From Escherichia phage JLBYU50: a DNA stretch of 64,000 bases. The stretch lies in sequence record OK272470.1; one strand, 5' to 3'. This document shows positions 1 to 10,692 of this stretch, piece by piece (within the stretch, counting starts at the first letter, position 1; each line of letters begins with the position of its first letter). The translations under genes were made by a program, and so were the position numbers. Under the pieces are notes generated by a model. It was not told where the DNA came from. It did no database searches and worked only from the letters and a program-made list of their open reading frames with translations.

Positions 1-106
1 CCACAACAAAATCCAGCGGTTTGTCTGTTACTGTGTTCAGTGCGGAAATAGACAGACCATCACCAGAAATCAGGGTTACGCAAGATTTGAAATTTTTAGC
101 AAACAT
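1..106 (-). CDS. hypothetical protein, N-terminal fragment (gene continues beyond left edge)
   Basis: ATG at 106..104 on minus strand preceded by GAGGAG (rc of 113..118, 6-nt spacer); frame open to position 1; absent from ORF track because truncated. Confidence 0.4.
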   Translation of the reverse strand, partial: MFAKNFKSCVTLISGDGLSISALNTVTDKPLDFVV

Positions 107-116
107 AGTTTTCTCC

Positions 117-395
117 TCAAATAATAACTACAAAATATTTTACACCATCATATTCGACAATATGATCAGGATATTTAAATCCTTTATAAGATTTACCAAA
201 CAGACTAACAGCCTCATTAGCTTTGTTTTGCGGATTACTCAGCCACTGTTCTTCTGTGTAAAACTTAAACTCTGTTCTCTTACCTTCTTTTTCTAAACCA
301 ACAATTTCCTGTGTGATATCTTCAATACCTGCATTCTTCAAGGATTTGATTACCTGACGCAAACCGTGTTTAAAGATATCTTCTGCTGTTAACAT
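117..395 (-). CDS. hypothetical protein (92 aa)
   Basis: ORF track; GGAGG RBS 8 nt upstream of ATG on minus strand. Confidence 0.55.
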   Translation of the reverse strand: MLTAEDIFKHGLRQVIKSLKNAGIEDITQEIVGLEKEGKRTEFKFYTEEQWLSNPQNKANEAVSLFGKSYKGFKYPDHIVEYDGVKYFVVII

Positions 396-407
396 AATAC
401 CTCCAAC

Positions 408-431
408 AAGCCCCCGAAGGGGCTTTATTTC
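408..431. terminator. GC-rich stem-loop AAGCCCC-CGAA-GGGGCTT followed by TATTTCTT
   Basis: perfect 7-bp stem with tetraloop; U-tract lies on the + strand although flanking genes are on minus. Confidence 0.4.
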
Positions 432-1154
432 TTAAGCAATGATTGCTGCGATATTAGGTTTAACAAAGGTAGATGGTTTCATAATTTTACCTTTGTCATC
501 AAAGAATACGTACACCTTTTGAACTTCGTTATATACAGCATGTACCCCAGTATAAGAACCTTCTGCACGATCTTTGCTTCGCATCTCGATAGCATCGCAC
601 TCTTTTTCAAGAGCTTCAATAATATCCTTAGTTTCCCAAATAGCCAGGAGTTGCTTCTTGGTAGGATACTTGGACTCATTGCTATTCAACACTTCACGCA
701 TAACCTTCTTCTCGTTATAAACAGAACGCACCAAAGTATCTCGTGCCATACGTGTAAGTGTAAGAGACATTAAGGCAAATTGCAAGTCATTTTCTACCAT
801 TTTATCAAATTCAATGATAACATCGTAAATGTTTTCTGCCAGAACATCGCCTGTCGGCATTTCCAGAGCTTTATCAACACCTTCTTTACCAAAGAACATA
901 AATGCCAGATAGGATGCTACCACAAAAATATCTGCTGCTGCATCAAGTAATTCAACGTGATCATTTTCCTGTGCTGCTGCTTGAAACTCTTTAAGTTCTT
1001 CTCGTACAAAAGAAAGTTGAGCTTCAAACATCTCTTGAGTAAATTCTGGGGTTACTCCACCGCGTGCCTTAGCATTCCAAGCAACAATTTGATCGGCAGC
1101 TTTGATAAAGAAGCTATTGTCCACTTTTACTTGTTTGAAAAAATTCTCGATCAT
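432..1154 (-). CDS. hypothetical protein; possible all-alpha NTP pyrophosphohydrolase (MazG/HisE-like)
   Basis: ORF track; AAGGAG RBS; acidic motif REELKEFQAAAQENDHVELLDAAADIF resembles the EExxE...E..D metal-binding signature; product weakly supported. Confidence 0.45.
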   Translation of the reverse strand: MIENFFKQVKVDNSFFIKAADQIVAWNAKARGGVTPEFTQEMFEAQLSFVREELKEFQAAAQENDHVELLDAAADIFVVASYLAFMFFGKEGVDKALEMPTGDVLAENIYDVIIEFDKMVENDLQFALMSLTLTRMARDTLVRSVYNEKKVMREVLNSNESKYPTKKQLLAIWETKDIIEALEKECDAIEMRSKDRAEGSYTGVHAVYNEVQKVYVFFDDKGKIMKPSTFVKPNIAAIIA

Positions 1155-1351
1155 TGTTTCTCCTTATTTAAAGTATTGTTCTAACAAAACACTAATGCGA
1201 ACTACCGATTCGCCCATATACGCCCCAGCACAGAGGAAAACAACAAATCTACAAAAATTGCAGTACCATTTGTCCACTGGAAACGAGGTTAACATTATAA
1301 TTGCAATAGCAATTAACATCATAAAAACTGTTACTAATACCATATTACCTC

Positions 1352-2467
1352 TTACTCTGCTGGTTCCCAAGTACCTGGAATCATCTTACGTACACGTACC
1401 CCAACAGGCTTGGTAGGAATACCTTCGTCTGAAAATTCTTCGTACTCTATTTCAACAAATTGACCAATAAGTATCAAAGCATTTTCTTCTTTACGATAGT
1501 TAATGGTTTCATCTGAATCCTTACGCATCAGGAATTCGACTACTTTACCATTTTCCATCTCACCTGTCAATACCCCGTCACCATTTTTATCACGTTTTGC
1601 ACTTACCACCTTAACTTCCAGCGTCTGCCGTGGTTTACGTTTAATAACATCATAAGAACGTTTATCAAACTCGTAAACACCTTGTGCATTACGATACACA
1701 ACACCTTCCGCTTTCTCACGCAGAGCTTTTGCATAGAATTCATCAAACTGCTCTTGGTTTTCAATGTACTCTGTATGTACTACACAAATAAGTTCATCTA
1801 AACCTTTATCTTCAACAACGTCTTTTAGAGCAGCCAAAACTTCAACCCTCTTCTCAAATGGTACAGATGGCACAGGAACATCATATACATAGTATTTAAG
1901 AAGCGGAGTGTTAGCATTATGCTTTTTCCACGCACTATTAATTTGTTGAAGGCTAAGGACACCCAAACCAGCAAAAACTTCACCGTCAAGAGGATGACCA
2001 ACTACTTCTTTAATGAAGGTTGGAATTTCTTTCCAGTGAGGTGGAAGTTTATATACTTCCCCAGCTTTAGATAAACATTCACCTTGCATGTTAATCATTG
2101 AACGTAGACCATTCAATTTATATTGTGCATAACCTGGGAACAAAACACGATCAGCATAATCTTTATAATCCTGACATTTCATGGGTGTGGAAGGAACATG
2201 GTTTTCAGCTTCCTCTTTTGTTTTATAATACCCATTCTTAAGTTGTTTTGTCCATTTGGCAAGAGCTTCTATTTCAGCTTGTTCTTCTGCTGTTGTTTCA
2301 TTTGAGCGACCAATATTTTTAGGTTCTGCTGTATAAGATTTGCTAGTAATCTTTCCACCTAATTGACCATGAGCAACAGTTACAACACTACCTTCGGTAT
2401 AGACTGACCACTGTTTAATTTTACCTGTAGAAGTTTTACCATACAATGTAGGATTAGTTTGTTTCAT
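1352..2467 (-). CDS. ATP-dependent polynucleotide ligase (DNA ligase-like; covalent nucleotidyltransferase superfamily)
   Basis: motif I variant KLNGLR, motif III LDGEVF, motif IV EGVVYR, motif V KRK plus C-terminal OB-like region; start moved to ATG at 2467 (MKQTNPTLYGK) with GGAGG RBS rather than the ORF-track ATG at 2515. Confidence 0.6.
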   Translation of the reverse strand: MKQTNPTLYGKTSTGKIKQWSVYTEGSVVTVAHGQLGGKITSKSYTAEPKNIGRSNETTAEEQAEIEALAKWTKQLKNGYYKTKEEAENHVPSTPMKCQDYKDYADRVLFPGYAQYKLNGLRSMINMQGECLSKAGEVYKLPPHWKEIPTFIKEVVGHPLDGEVFAGLGVLSLQQINSAWKKHNANTPLLKYYVYDVPVPSVPFEKRVEVLAALKDVVEDKGLDELICVVHTEYIENQEQFDEFYAKALREKAEGVVYRNAQGVYEFDKRSYDVIKRKPRQTLEVKVVSAKRDKNGDGVLTGEMENGKVVEFLMRKDSDETINYRKEENALILIGQFVEIEYEEFSDEGIPTKPVGVRVRKMIPGTWEPAE

Positions 2468-2657
2468 CTTTAACCTCCAGTTGCGAAAGAACCCATTTAG
2501 CCATTTCAATTTCACCGTGTAGTCTGCCTAGTTCATAGGCATCATCAATATTACCACCAGTGTAATCATCCACCATAAAGTAAGGATCTTCACTACTGTT
2601 AGGTGCGTTTGCAATTCTCGTTAGTTCTTCAATAAATGTCATAGTTAACCTTACCAA
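2454..2657 (-). CDS. hypothetical protein (67 aa)
   Basis: ORF track; part of tightly packed minus-strand operon. Confidence 0.4.
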   Translation of the reverse strand: MVRLTMTFIEELTRIANAPNSSEDPYFMVDDYTGGNIDDAYELGRLHGEIEMAKWVLSQLEVKDETN

Positions 2658-2875
2658 TTATACACAAGAGTTTGAATTTCTTCCATCAAGTCTTCAAGAT
2701 CTGTATCAACATATTCAGAAGATGTTGCCATAAAGTATGTAATCATTGTGAACCCTTCCGAAGAAAGGGCATCAAGGATATCATTAAACATATCTTCCAT
2801 TTCAGTATTTTCACCAAACGAGAATAACATTTGTTGATCTTCGCTTACACCTTTAACATAGATAGCTGTACTCAT
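2651..2875 (-). CDS. hypothetical protein (74 aa), acidic
   Basis: ORF track; overlaps neighbours by a few nt (operon-style coupling). Confidence 0.4.
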   Translation of the reverse strand: MSTAIYVKGVSEDQQMLFSFGENTEMEDMFNDILDALSSEGFTMITYFMATSSEYVDTDLEDLMEEIQTLVYNW

Positions 2876-2878
2876 ATA

Positions 2879-3199
2879 TTAATCCTTAAGACGTTCATTT
2901 AAATCTGCAATAACATCACCTAAATCTTCACATTCCAGTGTTAACTCTGAAACTTGTTCATTCAAACAAGAAACTTCTTCATTTAGATCTGAAATAATGT
3001 TTTCTAATGAATCTACTTGGTCATCATATGAACGTTTTGTTTCTTCAAGTTCTTCCGTAAGATCATTAATCAAACGGAGCAAAGATAAGATATAGCCGTC
3101 TCCTGTCTCGTTCCTCCACTCACTTCCGTAGCGATAAATAATAATTTCACCATTATCGACTACTGTAAAATACTTACCTTCACCAGAATAAATTTCCAT
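2879..3199 (-). CDS. hypothetical coiled-coil protein (106 aa)
   Basis: ORF track; heptad-rich C-terminal half (LNEEVSCLNEQVSELTLECEDL). Confidence 0.45.
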   Translation of the reverse strand: MEIYSGEGKYFTVVDNGEIIIYRYGSEWRNETGDGYILSLLRLINDLTEELEETKRSYDDQVDSLENIISDLNEEVSCLNEQVSELTLECEDLGDVIADLNERLKD

Positions 3200-3208
3200 A
3201 TACTCTCC

Positions 3209-3613
3209 TTATTGTAGTTTAAGTGAACTGCGAAGACGTTTCTCTTGCTGATCACGAATATGTTGTGGAACCTCATGAATTGAATCGTTACCGTGCCTAT
3301 TTTCAACTACTAAAGAGATAACTTGATAACCAAACTCTTCAGCAAGAGTTAAATAAGGTTTAAGTTCTTTCTCTGTGGTTGAAGTGTTAGAGACAATAAT
3401 CTTTTTAATATTAGATGCCATAGCATCACGAACAATACTCTGACACCATGCGTGTGCTTTACCTACATTCTCTGGCTTCCAATCGTAAACACCACTTTCT
3501 GTGTAATGATATTGATCTGCCTCACAGATAGGCCAATAACCTTCAGAAATAATTTCTGCTACTGTAGATTTACCTGCACCTGAAACACCACGTAAGATGA
3601 TAAGTTGTTTCAT
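3209..3613 (-). CDS. P-loop polynucleotide 5'-kinase-like protein
   Basis: Walker A GVSGAGKST near N-terminus; small single-domain kinase; abuts RNA ligase gene (stop/start adjacent at 3613/3614). Confidence 0.6.
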   Translation of the reverse strand: MKQLIILRGVSGAGKSTVAEIISEGYWPICEADQYHYTESGVYDWKPENVGKAHAWCQSIVRDAMASNIKKIIVSNTSTTEKELKPYLTLAEEFGYQVISLVVENRHGNDSIHEVPQHIRDQQEKRLRSSLKLQ

Positions 3614-4546
3614 TTAGCCTCCAAAGAAGTTTTCTATTTCTTTACGTCGCTCTTGTGGATCTAAAGCAGCCCATTGAGTCTTAGTAAAGTTGTTTCGAAG
3701 CCATTCTAGCAAAGTATAATATTCTTCGTCAACAATTTGTTTAGCATTGTTTGGGTTGTCCCAAATCATATCCCACTTCTTATTGCCACCACGCATAAGG
3801 AATTTTTTAGCAAGATAGTATGGTGACTTAATCTTTAACAGTAAGTTAAACGGGTAGTTTGTTTCACGAACAACAAACCCTTCGTGTTTACAATGTTTAG
3901 ACATTTCAACAACATCTGAAAATTTAATCATCGGATAAACTTCAGGACGTTTAAATTTTGTAATAGATGCAATCCCATCAAGAACACCTTCAGGTAGCAT
4001 GAAACTTGTCCCATCAGGATTTTGAATCCTTGCTCCGATTAAGTATGCGCCTGGTTCTTCTTCAACAATATGTGGATCAGAAGGATCACAGATTTCAAAA
4101 AGAAAAGTTGCTTTTGCACTTTCTGTCCACTTAATGAAATACTCTATGTCGTCACACTCGGAAACAATACGGTTCTTTGCCATAATTGCGAAATCTGATT
4201 CTAGGCTCCCTGTTGTTGATACAACAAGTTTCCCTTTGTACACACCTACAGATGCCATAAAACCGTTTACTTTACGGACAGCATCTACAATTTCGTCTGC
4301 TGGAAGATTTGTACCATTTTCAAAACGATTAAAGATTTTAGTAAAAGGCCAAATAACAACATTGTCTTCTGAGTCAACAACCAACCCACGACAATCTAAA
4401 AGTCGTTTGTCAACGTTCCACAAGTTATCCCAGAATACATTGTTTTTGTATTTAAGTACAGCAAGACCAGCATACTCTCCAGATTTAACTTCTTTTTTAT
4501 GCACTAAACCTTTTGCAATCAGGTCATCACAATTGAACTTAGCCAC
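3614..4546 (-). CDS. RNA ligase, T4 Rnl1-like
   Basis: LLDCRGLVV...KIFNRFENG matches T4 Rnl1 N-terminal block (ALECRGIMF...KFFNLNE); adenylation motif KVNGFM; FLFEICDP and LLKIKSPYY blocks. Confidence 0.75.
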   Translation of the reverse strand: MAKFNCDDLIAKGLVHKKEVKSGEYAGLAVLKYKNNVFWDNLWNVDKRLLDCRGLVVDSEDNVVIWPFTKIFNRFENGTNLPADEIVDAVRKVNGFMASVGVYKGKLVVSTTGSLESDFAIMAKNRIVSECDDIEYFIKWTESAKATFLFEICDPSDPHIVEEEPGAYLIGARIQNPDGTSFMLPEGVLDGIASITKFKRPEVYPMIKFSDVVEMSKHCKHEGFVVRETNYPFNLLLKIKSPYYLAKKFLMRGGNKKWDMIWDNPNNAKQIVDEEYYTLLEWLRNNFTKTQWAALDPQERRKEIENFFGG

Positions 4547-4547
4547 C

Positions 4548-5099
4548 TTAATCTCCTTTGATTATCTTATGATGATCTACAACAATAATATCACGCTTAT
4601 CCATAATAGAGATGATTTCGTCAAAATGCAAGATTTTCCCGTGTGCATCCCAACCAACATCCAACATTTTCCCATACAAATGATCAGGGAATGATCCGTG
4701 AGAGTGTCCGTGTAGCATGATTGATCCATGCCCTTGTTTATTCCAGGCAGCCATAGGGTAATGGCTTAAGACGAAAAACAGCTTCTGATATTTCACTTCG
4801 TCATAATAAACCACTTCTCCATACTCTGCAAGCACTTTTCTGTGTTTACTGTAATCATGGTTCCCAACACAGTAAGTAATATCCCCTTGGAGACGGGAAG
4901 CAATCTTACGGGTATCTTCTTCAGTCCCGAAACAGAAGTCCCCAAGATGGTACATCTTTACTCCTGGTGTTGTGGCACATTTATTCCATGCTTCGATCAG
5001 TGCTTCTGTCATATGCTCCATATCTTCCCACGGACGATATTCAGGAGCAAACTCTCGGATACGTTTGTGCATAAAATGCAAATCACTTGTAATAAACAT
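4548..5099 (-). CDS. calcineurin-like metallophosphoesterase
   Basis: complete metallophosphatase signature: SDLHF, HLGDF, VGNHDY, LHGHSHG. Confidence 0.75.
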   Translation of the reverse strand: MFITSDLHFMHKRIREFAPEYRPWEDMEHMTEALIEAWNKCATTPGVKMYHLGDFCFGTEEDTRKIASRLQGDITYCVGNHDYSKHRKVLAEYGEVVYYDEVKYQKLFFVLSHYPMAAWNKQGHGSIMLHGHSHGSFPDHLYGKMLDVGWDAHGKILHFDEIISIMDKRDIIVVDHHKIIKGD

Positions 5100-5458
5100 T
5101 AGTATAATCCCTCGCTGAATAGTTCACTGTTGTGACCATTTCTTTCGTAATTAATTTGTTTGGCGTTATCTGCAATGATATAAGCATCTTTGCGACTCCA
5201 CCAGTTATAATACTGGTCAATAAACCCTTGATTATCAGGTAAGCAAAACAGTTTATCAATCAATCCTGCATCTTTTAAAACATTAAGTTGTGCAGATAGT
5301 ACAGGATTTGCATGCCTAACACAAGGAATAATTAACTCTTTGCCATTGTTGAGAATATACTTATTCGCAGCGCAGACTATAACACGTTGAGCATAGTGAT
5401 CCTCACCAATCCAAGTAAGAGGTTGGTAACAAATATCATGTTGATTAGTAGCGCACAT
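5099..5458 (-). CDS. hypothetical protein (119 aa)
   Basis: ORF track frame; start placed at ATG 5458 (ORF track used TTG at 5461). Confidence 0.45.
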   Translation of the reverse strand: MCATNQHDICYQPLTWIGEDHYAQRVIVCAANKYILNNGKELIIPCVRHANPVLSAQLNVLKDAGLIDKLFCLPDNQGFIDQYYNWWSRKDAYIIADNAKQINYERNGHNSELFSEGLY

Positions 5459-5607
5459 CAATTTTCTCCATACTCTTTTAATTTATCAGCGAAAAAACTG
5501 TAATCAGGAAGTAAAAGATCATTACTCGTATCGCTACAGTTTTCTTCCTCTTTATAGATAAAATGCCCTTCATCCTCTTCTTGCTCTGACCAAACTGAGT
5601 AATGCAT
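5458..5607 (-). CDS. small acidic hypothetical protein (49 aa)
   Basis: below ORF-track size cut-off; ATG at 5607..5605, stop TGA overlaps ATG of downstream gene (ATGA-type coupling); weak RBS. Confidence 0.3.
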   Translation of the reverse strand: MHYSVWSEQEEDEGHFIYKEEENCSDTSNDLLLPDYSFFADKLKEYGEN

Positions 5608-5616
5608 AATACCTAC

Positions 5617-5991
5617 TTAATAGTTAACACGTTTAATTTCAACACCATAGGATGAAATAAAATTTTCCTTAGCTAACATATATTTACCAGCAGCAGAAGG
5701 ATTTGATGTATGAACATAGATAGTTTTAAGAGCATCCCATTCACCCGCGTACAACATACATTCTACGTCTAAGAACGCATGATATCCTTCTTGATCTTCT
5801 CCAAGATCATTATCGAAGTGTATCTCTGAGATATTATTGAAATTATCTTCATCTGAAACAAAAGATAACCAATCCTCAAAAGATTTTAACCAAATGGCAT
5901 CCTCATAACCATAATCTTTAGGATCTCTTAAATCGTCTAACCAAAGAATTTTAGCCACTATCAACCCCCTTCCTGTTTCTCTTCTTTCCAA
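5617..5991 (-). CDS. hypothetical protein (124 aa)
   Basis: ORF track. Confidence 0.45.
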   Translation of the reverse strand: MERRETGRGLIVAKILWLDDLRDPKDYGYEDAIWLKSFEDWLSFVSDEDNFNNISEIHFDNDLGEDQEGYHAFLDVECMLYAGEWDALKTIYVHTSNPSAAGKYMLAKENFISSYGVEIKRVNY

Positions 5992-6152
5992 GTTTTACCA
6001 TTATCTACCAACTTCTTAGAAACAGCAAATCTTTCTCCATTGATATAAAACAAATAAAGAATAAAGGATTTTCCTATAGTTACAGTATCTGCTACTTCTA
6101 CACGCTTTACACCTTGCATGTATTTGGCTTTACCTGAATAAATAAGAAACAT
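5961..6152 (-). CDS. hypothetical protein (63 aa)
   Basis: ORF track; overlaps neighbours. Confidence 0.3.
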   Translation of the reverse strand: MFLIYSGKAKYMQGVKRVEVADTVTIGKSFILYLFYINGERFAVSKKLVDNGKTWKEEKQEGG

Positions 6153-6430
6153 TACTTATTCCTTTTGTTGTTGATCACATCTAAAGCTGTGTAAGGTTTG
6201 TTTGTACCGCTGTATTCAAGAATAATTGGTGCATGTTCATAGACCAACTCAAAAGTACCATACACAGAATCTGCAACTGAAATAAGCATTTCAGTGCCTT
6301 CATCGTTCTTAATTAATGAAAACCTTGCCCCTGGTTTATTTAGCACTTCATATTTCTTACCTGCTGTCAGCAAACCTGAATACCATTCATTTTGCACAAC
6401 AGACAAACACTTCAGATAGGTTTTTCTCAT
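6152..6430 (-). CDS. hypothetical protein (92 aa)
   Basis: ORF track. Confidence 0.4.
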   Translation of the reverse strand: MRKTYLKCLSVVQNEWYSGLLTAGKKYEVLNKPGARFSLIKNDEGTEMLISVADSVYGTFELVYEHAPIILEYSGTNKPYTALDVINNKRNK

Positions 6431-6768
6431 TTCTTTTTGCTCCTTCTTTTAGGCTTCTCGTATAAACCTAACACAGCAGACTCTTTTGCACAGATAGGAA
6501 CTGACTTCATTCCTCGTTTTTTAGCTTCTGGTAGATTCAAAACCCACCAGCCAAACCAGTACAATTCATCTTCTGTGAAAGGATCTGCCATAGGATCTGC
6601 ATCACGTGCTTCAAATTTAGCAAGAGCTTCTTCTATCTTTTCTATTGGAGTATCAAAGACAAAAGCCTCTGTGTCAAATTTTTGTTTCTTAGGAGCGGCT
6701 TTTGCCGCCCCATCTTTAGATGCGCGCTTTGTTACGGATCGCTTCTTCGGTGTTTTCGCCATCAACAA
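6427..6768 (-). CDS. hypothetical protein with highly basic N-terminus (possible nucleic-acid binding)
   Basis: ORF track; KKRSVTKRASKDGAAKAAPKKQK lysine-rich tail and KRRSKKK C-terminus. Confidence 0.45.
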   Translation of the reverse strand: MLMAKTPKKRSVTKRASKDGAAKAAPKKQKFDTEAFVFDTPIEKIEEALAKFEARDADPMADPFTEDELYWFGWWVLNLPEAKKRGMKSVPICAKESAVLGLYEKPKRRSKKK

Positions 6769-6955
6769 CCTCCATGCGGTGTAAGAAATCTTGCTGGAAT
6801 CGCCAATACTGTTGACCAGTCCTTACATCTTCGTAGATCACAACAGGATCAAATACTTTAGATACACCCGCTGGTTTAGGAAAGCCAACTACACGATATA
6901 AACCGCCTTTGCTAATACAAGAATATGTTACATCAGTTAAAATTTCTTTTTTCAT
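6716..6955 (-). CDS. hypothetical protein (79 aa)
   Basis: ORF track. Confidence 0.4.
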   Translation of the reverse strand: MKKEILTDVTYSCISKGGLYRVVGFPKPAGVSKVFDPVVIYEDVRTGQQYWRFQQDFLHRMEVVDGENTEEAIRNKARI

Positions 6956-7149
6956 TTCTTAATAAACTCCAATACAGGTACGTGATCAGCAGTTAAAGTT
7001 ACACAATTGTAACTTACCTTTTCAACTTCAGAGAATGCTTCAACCCATAGCAAGAAATTCTCTTTAGCTTCTTCATAATTCAATGTTGACTTAACAACAT
7101 GGAACTCACCAAGGATGACTCTATAGATTGTTTGCATAGTTTGATTCAT
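6952..7149 (-). CDS. hypothetical protein (65 aa)
   Basis: ORF track. Confidence 0.4.
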   Translation of the reverse strand: MNQTMQTIYRVILGEFHVVKSTLNYEEAKENFLLWVEAFSEVEKVSYNCVTLTADHVPVLEFIKK

Positions 7150-7215
7150 TTATTTTTCCTTTGTTTAAAATGTGTTAAACAATCGCAAATGCTTGTGACG
7201 CACTTTGTGATCCCA

Positions 7216-7584
7216 CTAATTAATGTCAGCACTATGATTGTTGAGAGTATAGGATACTCCATCGCCCAAGTCAACATGAATCTCAACTCCTAACTGTCTT
7301 TCTAATGGTAAACGTTTTGAGAATTGATAATTACAAAGTTTACAGTCTAAGTCAAGCAACTCATGTTTGCTTAAACCTGGGATGATAACTTTGCTTCCCA
7401 CTGTCCACTCAATACCTTCAAAGTTATCTCTTCTTTTCAAAATGTCAAGTAAGAAGATGATTTGTTGCCATTCCGTAGACAAGTCTTCTTCATAGAACGC
7501 AGAACAAAAAGTTTTATCATCGTAGAAAGCATACATTATGCCTCCATCTATTGTTTCACTTCTAACGTAACGTGTGACCCTCAT
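7216..7584 (-). CDS. hypothetical protein (122 aa), first gene of minus-strand operon
   Basis: ORF track; AGGAGG RBS directly upstream on minus strand. Confidence 0.45.
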   Translation of the reverse strand: MRVTRYVRSETIDGGIMYAFYDDKTFCSAFYEEDLSTEWQQIIFLLDILKRRDNFEGIEWTVGSKVIIPGLSKHELLDLDCKLCNYQFSKRLPLERQLGVEIHVDLGDGVSYTLNNHSADIN

Positions 7585-7715
7585 TATTTCCTCCTGTACG
7601 GCTCTGTAACGAGCTAATAGCCTCTAAGATATGCAACCACCTTACCTCACAGTAAAACTCGTTACAATCGTTTTTAGGAGGTTTAGGTTGTACTTAAAAA
7701 TAATCTAAAAAGGTG

Positions 7716-7744
7716 TTGACAAACGCAAAAAAGTATGCTACCCT
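7716..7744 (+). promoter_or_regulatory. sigma70-like promoter (TTGACA-N17-TGcTACCCT)
   Basis: perfect -35 hexamer at 7716-7721, extended -10 at 7736-7744. Confidence 0.4.
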
Positions 7745-7925
7745 AACCCCCGAAAAACGCCGAGCGCAGCGAGGGGGTGTTATCTAATCTTGTGATACAT
7801 GATCTAACAGACAACTTAGTAGTCTACATATAGCACTATGTTATGTCTATAATACTAACATACATGCTCTATACTAACAATAGATTCTTTATTAATTTTA
7901 TTATTAATTAAATAATAAATATCTA

Positions 7926-7954
7926 TTGACTTTAGATCTATCTGTATGTAGAGT
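7926..7954 (+). promoter_or_regulatory. sigma70-like promoter upstream of Prs-like gene
   Basis: TTGACT at 7926-7931, 17-nt spacer, TAGAGT at 7949-7954; followed by AAGGAG RBS. Confidence 0.5.
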
Positions 7955-7993
7955 AGAGAACATAAAGTCCTAACTCAACTAAGGAGATAAACA

Positions 7994-8887
7994 ATGAAAG
8001 TTAGTATTCTGCATGGTGTTGACTGTTATGTTACTGATGTAGACGTTAAAGTCTTTACATTCTCTGGTGGAGAACAGCATGTTCAACTAGATACGAATCT
8101 ATCAGGTTTCAATCATGCTACAGACAGAATCTTACTCACTTTAGAAGTAAGATCTGCTAAAGACTTGATGACTTTGGTTATGACTAAGAATGCATTGGAC
8201 AATATGCTATATCATAAACCATATTGTGTTGATTTGCTCATGTTGTATGTGCCGTATGCACGACAAGACAGAGTGTGTGAGCCTGGGGAAGCATTCGGAG
8301 TTAAAGCCTTTGCTTCTATAATTAATTCATTAAATTTCTCACGTGTTATCGTTGCTGATCCACATAGTGATGTTACGCCAGCAGTGTTTGACAGACTCTG
8401 TGTAATACCTCAAGAAGAGATTGCTTACGAAACTTTAAAGTGGAAGTTACGTATGGAGAATTTTGCTCTTGTTAGTCCTGATGGTGGTGCTCTTAAGAAA
8501 ATATTTAAATTATCTAAGAAAATGTCTTTAGATGTGTTCTGTGCAGAGAAGGTTAGAGATACTGCAACAGGTGCTATTGTTCGTACAGACATTTCTGTAC
8601 AGGATTTCAATAAGCGTAACCTGATGATCGTAGATGATATCTGTGATGGTGGTAGAACTTTTATCGAATTGGCTAAAGTGCTACGTGCTCGTAACGCAGG
8701 TAAGATTGAGTTATATGTTACACACGGTATCTTTTCTAAAGGTCTTAAAGAGTTAAGTGAGCACTTTGACTGCATTCATTCTCTTAATGTGTGGGAAGAT
8801 AACATCCAAGAAGATTCCGGTGTTCTTGTTAAGAATCAGCCAGATTTGCAACAACAAATTGTATCTCCATACGTGTGGAATTTTTAA
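7994..8887 (+). CDS. ribose-phosphate pyrophosphokinase (Prs)-like protein; candidate PRPP or ADP-ribose pyrophosphokinase
   Basis: YVPYARQDR, VIVADPHS, VSPDGGAL and PRTase-type nucleotide loop LMIVDDICDGGRTF; strong RBS. Confidence 0.8.
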   Translation: MKVSILHGVDCYVTDVDVKVFTFSGGEQHVQLDTNLSGFNHATDRILLTLEVRSAKDLMTLVMTKNALDNMLYHKPYCVDLLMLYVPYARQDRVCEPGEAFGVKAFASIINSLNFSRVIVADPHSDVTPAVFDRLCVIPQEEIAYETLKWKLRMENFALVSPDGGALKKIFKLSKKMSLDVFCAEKVRDTATGAIVRTDISVQDFNKRNLMIVDDICDGGRTFIELAKVLRARNAGKIELYVTHGIFSKGLKELSEHFDCIHSLNVWEDNIQEDSGVLVKNQPDLQQQIVSPYVWNF

Positions 8888-8897
8888 ATAATAAGTG

Positions 8898-8926
8898 TTG
8901 ACAATAGGGAGTATGCTTAGTAAGAT
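8898..8926 (+). promoter_or_regulatory. sigma70-like promoter upstream of Nampt-family gene
   Basis: TTGACA 8898-8903, 17-nt spacer, TAAGAT 8921-8926. Confidence 0.5.
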
Positions 8927-8958
8927 ACTCCCACACTAACAAACAAGGAGACATAACT

Positions 8959-10692
8959 ATGAATATTTTTGCACCTTTTGCTACTGATTGGTATAAACCT
9001 GGTCACAAGCAGATGTACAACCAAAATACAAAACTCATTTTCTCTAATTTAACTCCTCGTAATGATAAAAACTTTGCACACTATGCAGATCGTGAAGCAC
9101 GTGGTGTGATTGTTTTAGGTATTCGTCGAGCAGTTACTGATGCTCTTGTAACTATGTGGGATGGCTTCTTTAAAATGTCTCGTAGTGCAGCAGTAAATAA
9201 ATTTTATCGTATGTCTAAGAATGCATTAGGTGCTTCTGCTCCTTCTGCTGAATGTTGGGGAGAATTGCACGATTTAGGTTATCTTCCGCTAGAAGTTCGA
9301 TCTCTGCCAGAAGGTGTTTTGTGTCCTATTGGTGTTCCTGTGTTTACTGTGCATAACACTTTAGAAAAATTCTTTTGGTTAACTAACTATGTGGAAACAC
9401 TCTTGTCAGATGAAACTTGGAAGACAATGACTAATGCCACAGCAGCTTTTCAGTATAAGCGTATCGCTATGGCGTATGCGATGGCAACGTGTGATAACAT
9501 TGATCACGTTAATTTCCAGTGTCATGATTTTAGTCTACGTGGCTTAAGCAATATCGAAGATGGTTATAAGAGTGGTATCGCTCATTTGGCATCTTTCACA
9601 GGAACAGATAATATTCTGGCTATTGAAACTGTGCATGATTACTATGGTATTGATTATGATCAATTTGTTGCAGGTTCTATTCCGGCAACAGAACATTCAG
9701 TAGCAACGACTAATATTGGAGCTATTGTTGAAGATCTGAAGAAACATTTCCCACATCTTAAAGATGATGTTGATGGGCTTCGTTATGTAGCAGAGAAAGA
9801 GTTTCTTCGCCGCTATATTGAAGAAATTGTTCCAGAAGGTTTTTGTTCATATGTAGCAGATTCTTATGATTACTGGGCTGTCTTGACTCGCATTCTGGTA
9901 GAATTGAAAGAGTCCATTATGTCACGAAATGGTCGTCTTGTTATTCGTCCAGATTCAGGAGATCCGGTTAAAGTTGTTGCAGGATACAATGTTGAATCTT
10001 TTGATAACTATGAAGACCTTTTAAATAATGGTATTGCGACAGCTACTGAAGTAGTTCATTTGGCTGATGTTAATAAGTATTACAATGTTCTTCAGGATTG
10101 TAGCGTTGCTGATTGTATTGATGAAACTTATGAGATTCCTTATTGTGAAGCAGTAGGTTCTATTCAAATCCTTTGGGAAGTGTTTGGCGGTACTATCAAT
10201 CGAAAAGGCTACAAGGTTCTTGATCAGCACATCGGTATGATTTATGGTGATTCTATTACTGTTGAACGAGAACACGAAATCTTACTCCGACTGAAGAAGA
10301 AAGGCTTTGCTGCTTCCAATATTGTATTTGGTGTTGGTAGTTATACTTATCAGTTCAATACACGAGATACTTTTGGTTTTGCTGTTAAAGCAACAGGTAG
10401 TATCATCGGTGAACACGAAATTTTGGTAAGTAAGGAGCCTAAAACTGATCCTGGTAAACGCTCTGCAAAAGGTTTTATTAAGGTTGTTAAGGATACAAAT
10501 GGTAAACTTTCTCTTGTGGATAATCTTTCTTTTAAAGATATTCAAGATGAAGACAATGAGTTAAAAGTTATCTTCAGGGATGGTACGGTTATTACACCAC
10601 AAGTAGAAGGACGTGATGAAACATTTACTGATATCCGCAACCGTGTTGATGTAGAGGTTCTTCGTACTATGGGAACCATCCAGGTTGACTAA
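8959..10692 (+). CDS. nicotinamide phosphoribosyltransferase (Nampt)-family protein
   Basis: block-by-block match to Nampt: ATDWYKPGHKQ, LPEGV..FTVHNT..FWLTNYVETLL, HDFSLRGLS, FTGTDN, PATEHSV, ADSYDYW, VIRPDSGDP, IVFGVGS..NTRD, DPGKRSAKG. Confidence 0.85.
   Translation: MNIFAPFATDWYKPGHKQMYNQNTKLIFSNLTPRNDKNFAHYADREARGVIVLGIRRAVTDALVTMWDGFFKMSRSAAVNKFYRMSKNALGASAPSAECWGELHDLGYLPLEVRSLPEGVLCPIGVPVFTVHNTLEKFFWLTNYVETLLSDETWKTMTNATAAFQYKRIAMAYAMATCDNIDHVNFQCHDFSLRGLSNIEDGYKSGIAHLASFTGTDNILAIETVHDYYGIDYDQFVAGSIPATEHSVATTNIGAIVEDLKKHFPHLKDDVDGLRYVAEKEFLRRYIEEIVPEGFCSYVADSYDYWAVLTRILVELKESIMSRNGRLVIRPDSGDPVKVVAGYNVESFDNYEDLLNNGIATATEVVHLADVNKYYNVLQDCSVADCIDETYEIPYCEAVGSIQILWEVFGGTINRKGYKVLDQHIGMIYGDSITVEREHEILLRLKKKGFAASNIVFGVGSYTYQFNTRDTFGFAVKATGSIIGEHEILVSKEPKTDPGKRSAKGFIKVVKDTNGKLSLVDNLSFKDIQDEDNELKVIFRDGTVITPQVEGRDETFTDIRNRVDVEVLRTMGTIQVD

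What the first reader, a model, noticed from the sequence alone, without database searches (positions are those of the whole stretch)
1352..2467. Ligase with KxNG (KLNGLR) adenylation motif next to the RNA repair operon
Seen: nucleotidyltransferase motifs I, III, IV and V are present but motif I reads KLNG rather than the KxDG typical of DNA ligases; the gene lies 700 bp from the Rnl1-like ligase and kinase. Inference: could be a DNA ligase for replication or a second RNA ligase (nick-sealing, Rnl2-like role) within the RNA repair system.
Basis: partly seen in the sequence, partly recalled or inferred. Interest (0 to 1): 0.4.

Follow-up and report, generated by a model that had tools for sequence, protein, structure and literature searches.

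The report
Phage DNA ligase with Asn-variant active site
This gene is the ordinary, already annotated ATP-dependent DNA ligase of a phi92-like E. coli phage, and its KLNG active-site motif is a common variant in this ligase family, not a sign of a second RNA ligase.

Summary
Window 1352-2467 (minus strand) encodes a 371-aa protein with motif I K117-L-N-G-L-R, plus motifs III, IIIa, IV, V and VI.

The window is a phi92-like E. coli phage (97-99% identical to deposited genomes). The gene is phi92 gp091, annotated "ATP-dependent DNA ligase".

KxNG is a normal variant here. It occurs in 56 of 145 family representatives clustered at 50% identity, and in most close homologues.

The closest solved structure is the African swine fever virus (ASFV) DNA ligase, a characterised DNA nick-sealing enzyme that reads KRNG. 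It matches over all three domains (profile E 7e-58, TM 0.79).

Asn never co-occurs with the motif VI Arg/Lys that pairs with the motif I Asp in human ligases (0/56 versus 29/87). The variant therefore looks like a coupled loss of an inter-domain salt bridge.

This is the only DNA-ligase-like gene in a genome that carries its own polymerase and primase-helicase. Family members sit near an Rnl1-like gene in only 4 of 80 diverse viral loci.

Verdict: replicative/repair DNA ligase, already known, low interest. Side result: the N-terminal domain is WGR-like and is shared with the ASFV ligase.

The parts
1352..2467 (-). ATP-dependent DNA ligase gene (371 aa plus stop), orthologue of phi92 gp091
   Evidence: ORF. 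RBS GGAGG 6 nt before the ATG. Pfam PF01068 at 42.8 bits, above the 26.2 cutoff. PHROG 114 'ATP-dependent DNA ligase' E 2e-74. 97.7-99% DNA identity to phi92-like phages annotated as DNA ligase.
2183..2467 (-). N-terminal DNA-binding domain (residues 1-95): beta-sheet plus long helix, WGR-like, homologous to the ASFV ligase NTD
2291..2320 (-). KNIGRSNETT loop (residues 50-59), the most conserved stretch of the NTD; equivalent to ASFV residues 85-94, which include the DNA-groove tip residues K89/K90/N91
   Evidence: K50, N51, G53, N56 and T58 are 93-99% conserved in 145 representatives. Alignment to ASFV KNLGKKNATT. The ASFV paper describes these residues at the DNA major groove.
2279..2281 (-). 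Gln63, invariant in the family; equivalent to ASFV Gln98, which hydrogen-bonds a phosphate of the broken DNA strand
   Evidence: Q in 144 of 145 representatives, the remaining one being a gap. Alignment. ASFV contact described in PMC6344480.
1628..2182 (-). Nucleotidyltransferase (adenylation) domain, residues 96-280
   Evidence: PF01068 covers residues 96-278 and model positions 2-204 of 204. Aligned to PDB DNA ligases.
2102..2119 (-). Motif I K117-L-N-G-L-R; K117 is the predicted AMP-attachment lysine; N119 replaces the usual Asp
   Evidence: Aligned to ASFV K151-R-N-G and PBCV-1 K-I-D-G. Position 119 is D in 87, N in 56 and E in 1 of the representatives.
1973..1990 (-). Motif III LDGEVF (E163 invariant)
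1949..1951 (-). Leu173, equivalent to ASFV Leu211 and human LIG1 Phe635 (nick-site residue)
   Evidence: Alignment. L in 113 and F in 30 of 145 representatives. ASFV paper.
1877..1894 (-). Motif IIIa YYVYDV (D196 conserved)
1691..1708 (-). Motif IV EGVVYR (E254 and G255 invariant)
1634..1648 (-). Motif V VIKRK (K276 and K278 invariant)
1355..1627 (-). OB-fold domain, residues 281-371
   Evidence: AF2 model shows five strands plus a helix, pLDDT above 95. PF14743 DNA_ligase_OB_2 gives a weak hit in this protein (E 0.0012) and hits above the cutoff in relatives. Aligned to the OB domains of the ASFV and PBCV-1 ligases.
1385..1423 (-). Motif VI GIPTKPVGVRVRK (R360 conserved). T352-K353 occupy the positions of human LIG1 R871-F872 and ASFV L402-Q403
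   Evidence: Alignments. Position 352 has the highest mutual information with position 119 of any column, and R/K at 352 is found only with D at 119.

Best explanation
The gene encodes the phage's own ATP-dependent DNA ligase.

It has three domains: a WGR-like N-terminal DNA-binding domain, a nucleotidyltransferase domain and an OB domain. By homology with the ASFV ligase-DNA complexes, these close as a ring around a nicked duplex. The expected chemistry is the standard three steps. Lys117 attacks ATP to form ligase-AMP. The AMP is passed to the 5'-phosphate at the nick. The 3'-OH then attacks to seal the strand.

In the phage this most likely joins Okazaki fragments and seals nicks made by recombination and repair during replication of its roughly 147-kb genome.

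The Asn in motif I (KLNG) is a tolerated, frequently recurring family variant. It is found only in members that have also lost the motif VI Arg/Lys, the residue that forms an inter-domain salt bridge with the motif I Asp in human LIG1 and LIG4. The position has therefore been released from the need to be acidic. It does not mark a change of substrate.

Shown by computation: homology, domain architecture, motif conservation, the D/N to R/K coupling, single copy in the genome, and synteny. Inferred: ATP use, DNA nick sealing in vivo, the replicative role, and the salt-bridge explanation.
For: 1. Identity. The window is 97.7-99% identical to phi92-like phages. The gene corresponds to phi92 gp091 and J-01 CDS0125, both annotated 'ATP-dependent DNA ligase'.

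2. Family. Pfam PF01068 scores above its cutoff and PHROG 114 gives E 2e-74. The profile-versus-PDB list of 54 hits is DNA ligases, apart from a weak tail hit to PAB1020 (E 3e-4). The top hit is the ASFV DNA ligase at E 6.9e-58 across NTD, AD and OB.

3. Structure. The AF2 model has pLDDT 96.7. Foldseek's best matches are the closed AsfvLIG-DNA complexes, TM 0.77-0.79 over about 405-411 columns, and all top-50 matches are DNA ligases.

4. The ASFV ligase has KRNG, binds ATP and seals DNA nicks. Its Asn153 adopts the same conformation as human LIG1 Asp570.

5. KxNG is common: most of the 120 close homologues and 56 of 145 representatives at 50% clustering. D/N flips at least 23 times on a neighbour-joining tree.

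6. Coupling. Position 352 (human LIG1 Arg871) is the column with the highest mutual information with position 119. R/K at 352 occurs in 29 of 87 Asp members and 0 of 56 Asn members, Fisher p 6.7e-8. Asp-Arg salt bridges are described for LIG1 and LIG4.

7. Only one ORF in the 146.6-kb genome of the 99%-identical phage matches the ligase profile. That genome carries DNA polymerase I, primase/helicase, a helicase and exonucleases, and has no other annotated DNA ligase.

8. Context elsewhere. In Felixounavirus the family ligase sits about 1.8 kb (five small genes) downstream of the DNA polymerase gene. In Cronobacter phage CR9 the syntenic slot holds a T4-type DNA ligase and no RNA-repair cassette.

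9. LAGLIDADG inteins are inserted exactly in motif I of several family members. Homing elements typically target conserved sites of important replication genes.
Against: - No biochemical data exist for this protein or, as far as I could find in the held library, for any phage member of the family.
- In Chlorella virus ligase the motif I Asp is reported as essential for step 2, so Asn is not trivially neutral in every ligase background.
- KxNG is the motif I form of two RNA ligase families, fungal Trl1 and MthRnl.
- The gene lies in the same strand block as a complete RNA healing-and-sealing cassette, with no convincing terminator between them. A loose linkage to a phosphoesterase and an Rnl1-like gene recurs in the distant Pseudomonas phage PAK_P1.
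- The D/N to R/K association is not corrected for phylogeny beyond a rough parsimony count.
Confidence: 0.85

Rival explanations
1. It is a second, nick-sealing RNA ligase (an Rnl2-like role), or a DNA/RNA-hybrid ligase, that works with the adjacent phosphoesterase, Rnl1-like ligase and kinase in RNA repair.
For: It lies on the same strand, 741 nt downstream of the kinase gene, with no clear terminator between them. KxNG is the motif I form of the Trl1 and MthRnl RNA ligases. Cassette components lie within 10 kb of family ligases in a minority of loci, and PAK_P1 has a phosphoesterase and an Rnl1-like gene 3-5 kb from its ligase. Many DNA ligases can act on RNA-containing nicks in vitro.
Against: No RNA-ligase Pfam, PHROG or NCBIfam hit for this protein. 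The C-terminal domain is an OB fold with motif VI, typical of DNA ligases and capping enzymes. All top-50 structural matches are DNA ligases, and the profile-versus-PDB hits are DNA ligases apart from one weak tail hit to PAB1020. The neighbouring cassette already has a healing phosphoesterase, a kinase and a sealing Rnl1-like ligase, so no function is missing. An Rnl1-like gene is within 10 kb in only 4 of 80 diverse loci. The syntenic phage CR9 has a DNA ligase in the same slot without the cassette. If this were not the DNA ligase, the phage would have none.
Confidence: 0.05
2. It is a DNA ligase, but a specialised low-fidelity repair enzyme like the ASFV ligase, not the replicative ligase. 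Okazaki joining would be left to host LigA.
For: The closest characterised homologue is the error-prone ASFV base-excision-repair ligase. The phage protein shares its Asn (N119) and Leu (L173) nick-site residues and also lacks the Arg-Phe pair of motif VI, reading T352-K353. Downstream neighbours include recombination and exonuclease genes.
Against: [quoted passage not shown] No PolX or AP-endonuclease repair set is annotated in the phage. In relatives the gene lies close to the replicative polymerase gene. Large virulent phages that encode a replisome usually also encode their own ligase (general statement in PMC9503650).
Confidence: 0.09
3. It is a catalytically impaired or non-enzymatic ligase homologue, because the motif I Asp is lost.
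For: The Chlorella virus ligase motif I Asp is reported to be essential for DNA adenylylation.
Against: Every other catalytic residue is invariant: K117, G120, E163, E254, G255, K276 and K278. The ASFV ligase is active with Asn. Asn is present in 39% of a large, conserved family.
Confidence: 0.01

Closest known systems
African swine fever virus DNA ligase (AsfvLIG, NP419L; PDB 6IMJ/6IMK/6IML/6IMN)
   Same: Same three-domain order, NTD-adenylation-OB. The family profile matches at E 6.9e-58 over ASFV residues 60-412, and the model superposes on the closed DNA complexes at TM 0.77-0.79. Motif I has Asn in both (KRNG versus KLNG). Leu occupies the Phe635-equivalent position in both, and neither has the Arg-Phe pair in motif VI. 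The NTD loop KNxG(K/R)xNxTT and the DNA-contacting Gln are conserved.
   Different: Only about 22% identity. The ASFV protein is about 48 residues longer (419 aa). The motif VI pair is T-K here and L-Q in ASFV. The host is a bacterium, not a pig macrophage. The ASFV enzyme acts in base-excision repair with PolX, whereas here the likely role is replication. Nothing is known about the fidelity of the phage enzyme.
Chlorella virus (PBCV-1) DNA ligase and bacterial Lig E (minimal NT plus OB_2 ligases)
   Same: The adenylation and OB domains and all six motifs align: PBCV-1 E 7.6e-41, Lig E 5e-37. The NCBIfam Lig E model is the best NCBIfam hit.
   Different: Those enzymes lack the N-terminal domain, have Asp in motif I, and PBCV-1 has Arg-Phe in motif VI. 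The Lig E model score of 67.6 is far below its cutoff of 200.
Bacterial WGR-NT-OB_2 ATP-dependent ligases (described in Williamson & Leiros 2020)
   Different: Pfam's WGR model does not detect the phage NTD. The phage and ASFV NTD carries an extra conserved KNxGxxNxTT loop. I did not compare sequences with those bacterial ligases directly.
T4 DNA ligase type, including the Cronobacter phage CR9 ligase
   Same: Same enzymatic class. The CR9 ligase occupies the same genomic slot between the NAD-salvage genes and the MazG-like gene.
   Different: No BLASTP similarity to the window protein. The CR9 enzyme has the T4-type helical DNA-binding domain (6DT1, E 4e-36).
T4 Rnl2, fungal Trl1 and MthRnl RNA ligases
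   Same: Same covalent nucleotidyltransferase superfamily. The third motif I position is also not Asp in these enzymes: His in Rnl2, Asn in Trl1 and MthRnl.
   Different: Their C-terminal modules are not OB folds carrying motif VI (established knowledge of these families, not tested here). No significant sequence or structural match was found apart from a weak Rnl3 hit, PAB1020, at E 3e-4 at the tail of the profile search.

Membership tests
ATP-dependent DNA ligase (Pfam DNA_ligase_A_M, PF01068) | Score above the Pfam gathering threshold over the whole adenylation domain | tested here: met
   42.8 bits against a cutoff of 26.2. Residues 96-278 cover model positions 2-204 of 204.
ATP-dependent DNA ligase | Motif I lysine in a Kx(D)G context, aligned with the adenylated lysine of solved ligases | tested here: met
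   K117 aligns with ASFV K151 and the PBCV-1 KIDG lysine. K117 and G120 are invariant. The third position is Asn here, as in 39% of the family and in the ASFV ligase.
ATP-dependent DNA ligase | Motifs III, IIIa, IV and V with their catalytic Glu, Asp and Lys residues | tested here: met
   E163, D196, E254/G255 and K276/K278 are invariant or nearly so in the family, and they align to PBCV-1 and ASFV.
ATP-dependent DNA ligase | C-terminal OB-fold domain carrying motif VI | tested here: met
   AF2 gives an OB fold at residues 281-371. Motif VI GIPTKPVGVRVRK aligns to PBCV-1 DCPRFPVFIGIRHEED. PF14743 is weak here (E 0.0012, below its cutoff) but above the cutoff in relatives.
ATP-dependent DNA ligase | ATP-dependent self-adenylation and sealing of 3'-OH/5'-PO4 nicks in duplex DNA | not testable with these tools
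   Requires purified protein. Shown only for the ASFV homologue.
ASFV-type (NTD-AD-OB) DNA ligases | N-terminal mixed alpha/beta DNA-binding domain homologous to the AsfvLIG NTD | tested here: met
   [not shown]
ASFV-type DNA ligases | The four 'unique' nick-site residues Asn153, Leu211, Leu402 and Gln403 | tested here: inconclusive
   N119 and L173 are identical to the ASFV residues. Positions 352 and 353 are T and K where ASFV has L and Q, though like ASFV they are not Arg-Phe.
Lig E (NCBIfam NF006592, equivalog) | Score above the curated cutoff | tested here: not met
   67.6 bits against a cutoff of 200. The protein also has an extra N-terminal domain that Lig E lacks.
WGR domain (Pfam PF05406), for the N-terminal domain | Detection by the Pfam WGR model | tested here: not met
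   No WGR hit for the whole protein or for residues 1-95, even at E up to 1.
WGR domain, for the N-terminal domain | WGR fold | tested here: met
   [not shown]
Rnl2-type or other ATP-dependent RNA ligases (Pfam RNA_ligase PF09414, RNA_lig_T4_1 PF09511) | Match to an RNA-ligase family model, or an RNA-ligase-specific C-terminal domain | tested here: not met
   No hit in Pfam, PHROGs or NCBIfam. No RNA ligase among the top-50 structural matches. Only a tail hit to PAB1020 at E 3e-4 with the family profile.

The most novel reading that the evidence does not exclude
The phage family and the ASFV ligase form one clade of 'WGR-like sensor plus NT plus OB' ligases. Within it, the KxNG members that also lack Arg/Lys in motif VI (such as this one) have lost the Asp-Arg latch between the adenylation and OB domains. 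That would give a looser nick site, making the enzyme mismatch-tolerant like the ASFV ligase, or able to seal RNA-containing nicks. It could then act as a back-up sealing enzyme for the neighbouring RNA repair cassette.
Probability: 0.1. Interest if true: 0.5.

Novelty: already known. Interest (0 to 1): 0.2.

Why it matters
For the question asked, it matters little. The gene is the phage's DNA ligase, already annotated as such in dozens of near-identical genomes, and the 'odd' motif is a routine family variant.

Three by-products may interest ligase specialists:
- The ASFV ligase features published as unique (the N-terminal fold, Asn153, Leu211) are shared by a very large phage ligase family. 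It has about 950 phage records and over 3000 representative clusters at E<=1e-10.
- That N-terminal domain has the fold of the WGR DNA-break-sensing domain of PARPs.
- Asp/Asn at motif I is coupled to the presence or absence of the motif VI Arg/Lys. This is a testable explanation for when the 'invariant' Asp can be replaced.

These points could guide enzyme engineering and the interpretation of ASFV ligase inhibitors. They do not make this locus unusual.

Tried and rejected
1. R2D ligase lead. A recently described Cronobacter-phage DNA ligase joins RNA to DNA. From memory, it comes from phage CR9. I fetched CR9. Its ligase gp264 shows no BLASTP similarity to the window protein and is T4-type, so it is not a close homologue. 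The original paper is not in the held library.

2. Direct Pfam detection of a WGR domain, or any other domain, in residues 1-95 found nothing. The WGR link rests on structure.

Ten individual members were scanned in its place.

4. A first MAFFT L-INS-i run timed out and was repeated with --auto.

5. The promoter and terminator scan of 1-8200 gave counts no higher than shuffled sequence, so nothing can be said about transcription units beyond shared strand and tight packing.

6. A literature search for phi92 together with DNA ligase and RNA ligase returned nothing.

7. I considered whether the GTG at 2515 is the real start. I rejected it because of the RBS before the ATG at 2467 and the N-termini of the homologues.

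8. I could not measure the N119-T352 distance in the AF2 model because the coordinates are not exposed to the script environment.

Full report
**What is there.** Window 1352-2467 on the minus strand is a 371-codon ORF. A GGAGG lies 6 nt before the ATG at 2467, and the ORF ends in TAA at 1352-1354. The first 6 kb of the window is 97.7-99% identical to about 55 deposited phi92-like E. coli phages (genus Justusliebigvirus). The ORF corresponds to phi92 gp091 and vB_Eco_J-01 CDS0125, both annotated 'ATP-dependent DNA ligase'. The protein passes the Pfam threshold for the ATP-dependent DNA ligase adenylation domain (PF01068, 42.8 bits against 26.2). It also matches PHROG 114 'ATP-dependent DNA ligase' at E 2e-74.

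**The observation.** Motif I reads K117-L-N-G-L-R, and it is the only K-x-[D/N/H]-G in the protein. Profile alignments place K117 on the adenylated Lys151 of the African swine fever virus (ASFV) ligase and on the KIDG lysine of Chlorella virus ligase.

The other motifs are present at these residues:
- III: LDGEVF, 160-165
- IIIa: YYVYDV, 192-197
- IV: EGVVYR, 254-259
- V: VIKRK, 274-278
- VI: GIPTKPVGVRVRK, 349-361

Their key residues (E163, E254, G255, K276, K278) are invariant across 143-145 homologues. It is incomplete in two ways: it omits motif VI and the N-terminal domain.

**Is KxNG unusual here?** No. Among the 120 closest clusters, nearly all read K-L-N-G. Among 145 representatives of clusters at 50% identity (E<=1e-35), 87 have KxDG, 56 have KxNG and 1 has KxEG. 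On a rough neighbour-joining tree the D/N state changes at least 23 times. The family is large. It is found in 950 phage records, including Felixounavirus, Vequintavirinae and Pakpunavirus, and it has 3325 representative clusters at E<=1e-10. The other, DNA-specific nick sealing with no RNA activity, needs an assay and was not testable here.

**Closest characterised relative.** The family profile hits the ASFV DNA ligase at E 6.9e-58 over ASFV residues 60-412. That is 17 orders of magnitude better than the next hit, Chlorella virus ligase, which aligns only over the adenylation and OB domains.

An AlphaFold2 model (pLDDT 96.7) superposes on the closed AsfvLIG-DNA complexes with TM 0.77-0.79 over about 405-411 columns. 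All 50 best Foldseek matches are DNA ligases.

The ASFV enzyme is KRNG in motif I. It binds ATP and seals DNA nicks, and its Asn153 has the same conformation as Asp570 of human LIG1. A DNA ligase with Asn in motif I is therefore experimentally established.

**Why Asn is tolerated.** In human LIG1 the motif I Asp570 forms a salt bridge with Arg871 of the OB domain. The same Asp275-Arg577 bridge is seen in LIG4. Sequence alignment puts T352-K353 of the phage protein at the LIG1 R871-F872, ASFV L402-Q403 and PBCV-1 R-F positions.

Of all 371 columns, position 352 has the highest mutual information with the D/N position 119. Arg or Lys at 352 occurs in 29 of 87 Asp members and in none of 56 Asn members (Fisher p 6.7e-8). 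This count is not corrected for phylogeny, but both characters change many times.

My reading, which is an inference, is that Asn appears only where the Asp-Arg latch has already been lost. The phage protein also shares Leu173 with ASFV Leu211, where LIG1 has Phe635. Leu is the family majority at that position (113 of 145). Two of the four ASFV residues published as 'unique' are thus family traits.

The matched 2ra8 segment is a bona fide Pfam WGR domain (E 6e-19). An NTD-only profile finds the ASFV ligase at E 3.2e-5 and 2ra8 at E 0.08.

The most conserved NTD residues are K50, N51, G53, N56, T58 and Q63. They align with the ASFV loop 85-94 and with Gln98, which lie in the major groove and hydrogen-bond the broken strand in the ASFV-DNA complexes. 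The NTD is therefore a WGR-like DNA-binding domain shared with ASFV.

The ASFV paper called this fold 'completely novel'. A 2020 review treats it separately from bacterial WGR-NT-OB_2 ligases. I found no paper in the held library that links the two, which does not prove that the link is unpublished.

**DNA or RNA?** Evidence for DNA:
- the OB domain with motif VI;
- the DNA-contacting NTD;
- the hits in sequence, profile and fold searches are DNA ligases, apart from one tail hit to the RNA ligase PAB1020 (E 3e-4);
- the gene is the only ORF in the 146.6-kb genome of the 99%-identical phage that matches the ligase profile. That genome encodes DNA polymerase I, primase/helicase, a second helicase and exonucleases, and has no other annotated DNA ligase.

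Evidence for the RNA idea:
- KxNG is the motif I form of fungal Trl1 and archaeal MthRnl RNA ligases;
- the gene lies 741 nt downstream of a P-loop kinase and 1146 nt downstream of an Rnl1-like ligase. A metallophosphoesterase and a cREC_REC protein lie further upstream. All are on the same strand.

That cassette already contains healing and sealing activities, so nothing is missing from it.

Across 80 diverse viral contigs carrying a family ligase, with 10 kb on each side:
- an Rnl1-like ORF was found in 4;
- the kinase in 8;
- the phosphoesterase in 10;
- others have the polymerase or primase-helicase nearby.

In Felixounavirus the ligase sits about 1.8 kb (five small genes) downstream of the DNA polymerase gene. 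In Pseudomonas phage PAK_P1 a phosphoesterase and an Rnl1-like gene lie 3-5 kb away, in a different order.

In Cronobacter phage CR9 the gene order is NAD-salvage genes, divergent region, small ORFs, DNA ligase, small membrane protein, MazG-like gene. This matches the window, but the ligase is an unrelated T4-type enzyme and the RNA cassette is absent. The conserved feature of the slot is 'a DNA ligase'. The RNA repair genes are a variable insertion next to it.

**Verdict.** This is the phage's own ATP-dependent DNA ligase (confidence about 0.85). It most likely serves lagging-strand joining and nick repair. KLNG is a recurrent variant coupled to the absence of the motif VI basic residue. The RNA-ligase reading is unlikely (about 0.05). 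An ASFV-like, repair-specialised, low-fidelity role remains possible (about 0.09). No biochemistry exists for any phage member that I could find, so substrate preference and fidelity remain inferences. The finding is already known and of low interest. The family-level observations are modest by-products: the shared WGR-like NTD with ASFV, the D/N to R/K coupling, and the inteins in motif I.

Noticed in passing
[not shown]
   Followed up: yes
homologues P0128, P0159, P0179, P0184, P0186, P0190 (about 700-785 aa): Inteins carrying LAGLIDADG homing endonucleases are inserted exactly inside motif I (KL[D/N]G | C...HN | CR) in several family members from metagenomes.
   Followed up: yes
window 3614-4546 (-), Rnl1-like ligase, residue K92: The neighbouring Rnl1-like RNA ligase also has Asn in motif I (RKVNGF). 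Its close relatives read KVNG and more distant ones KVDG, so the same D/N interchange occurs in that family too.
   Followed up: partly
window 5617-5991 (-): A protein with the cREC_REC domain (PF20274, 'cyclic-phosphate processing receiver', E 3e-14) lies just upstream of the phosphoesterase, Rnl1-like ligase and kinase genes. It travels with them in related loci L009, L011 and L017.
   Followed up: partly
L089 39177-40553 (Cronobacter phage CR9 gp264) compared with window 1352-2467: In the syntenic slot between the NAD-salvage genes and the MazG-like gene, CR9 has an unrelated T4-type DNA ligase. This looks like a non-orthologous replacement of the ligase, and no RNA-repair cassette is annotated there.
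   Followed up: yes
window 7994-10689 (+): Ribose-phosphate pyrophosphokinase and nicotinamide phosphoribosyltransferase genes (NAD+ salvage) are transcribed divergently from the ligase block. The same pair lies within 10 kb of family ligases in about 5-7 of 80 loci.
   Followed up: partly
family alignment, position 122 (motif I Arg): The motif I Arg (KxxGxR), which contacts the AMP ribose in other ligases, is replaced by Asn in 18 of 145 representatives (for example KLNGVN). This is unexplained.
   Followed up: no
search hits H37-H49 and loci L009, L011 (rV5/PVP-SE1-like phages): Ligase homologues in Vequintavirinae-like phages match in two pieces spanning about 1280-1300 nt, which implies an insertion of about 55-60 residues within the protein. 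Its nature was not examined.
   Followed up: no
records MG065645, MG065656, MG065689: Records labelled 'Campylobacter phage' with host C. jejuni are 98% identical to E. coli phi92-like phages. The host labels look doubtful.
   Followed up: no
loci L044, L048, L070, L085: Contigs binned as giant-virus MAGs (GVMAG) carry family ligases at about 30-33% identity. This fits the ASFV link, but they could also be mis-binned phage contigs.
   Followed up: no
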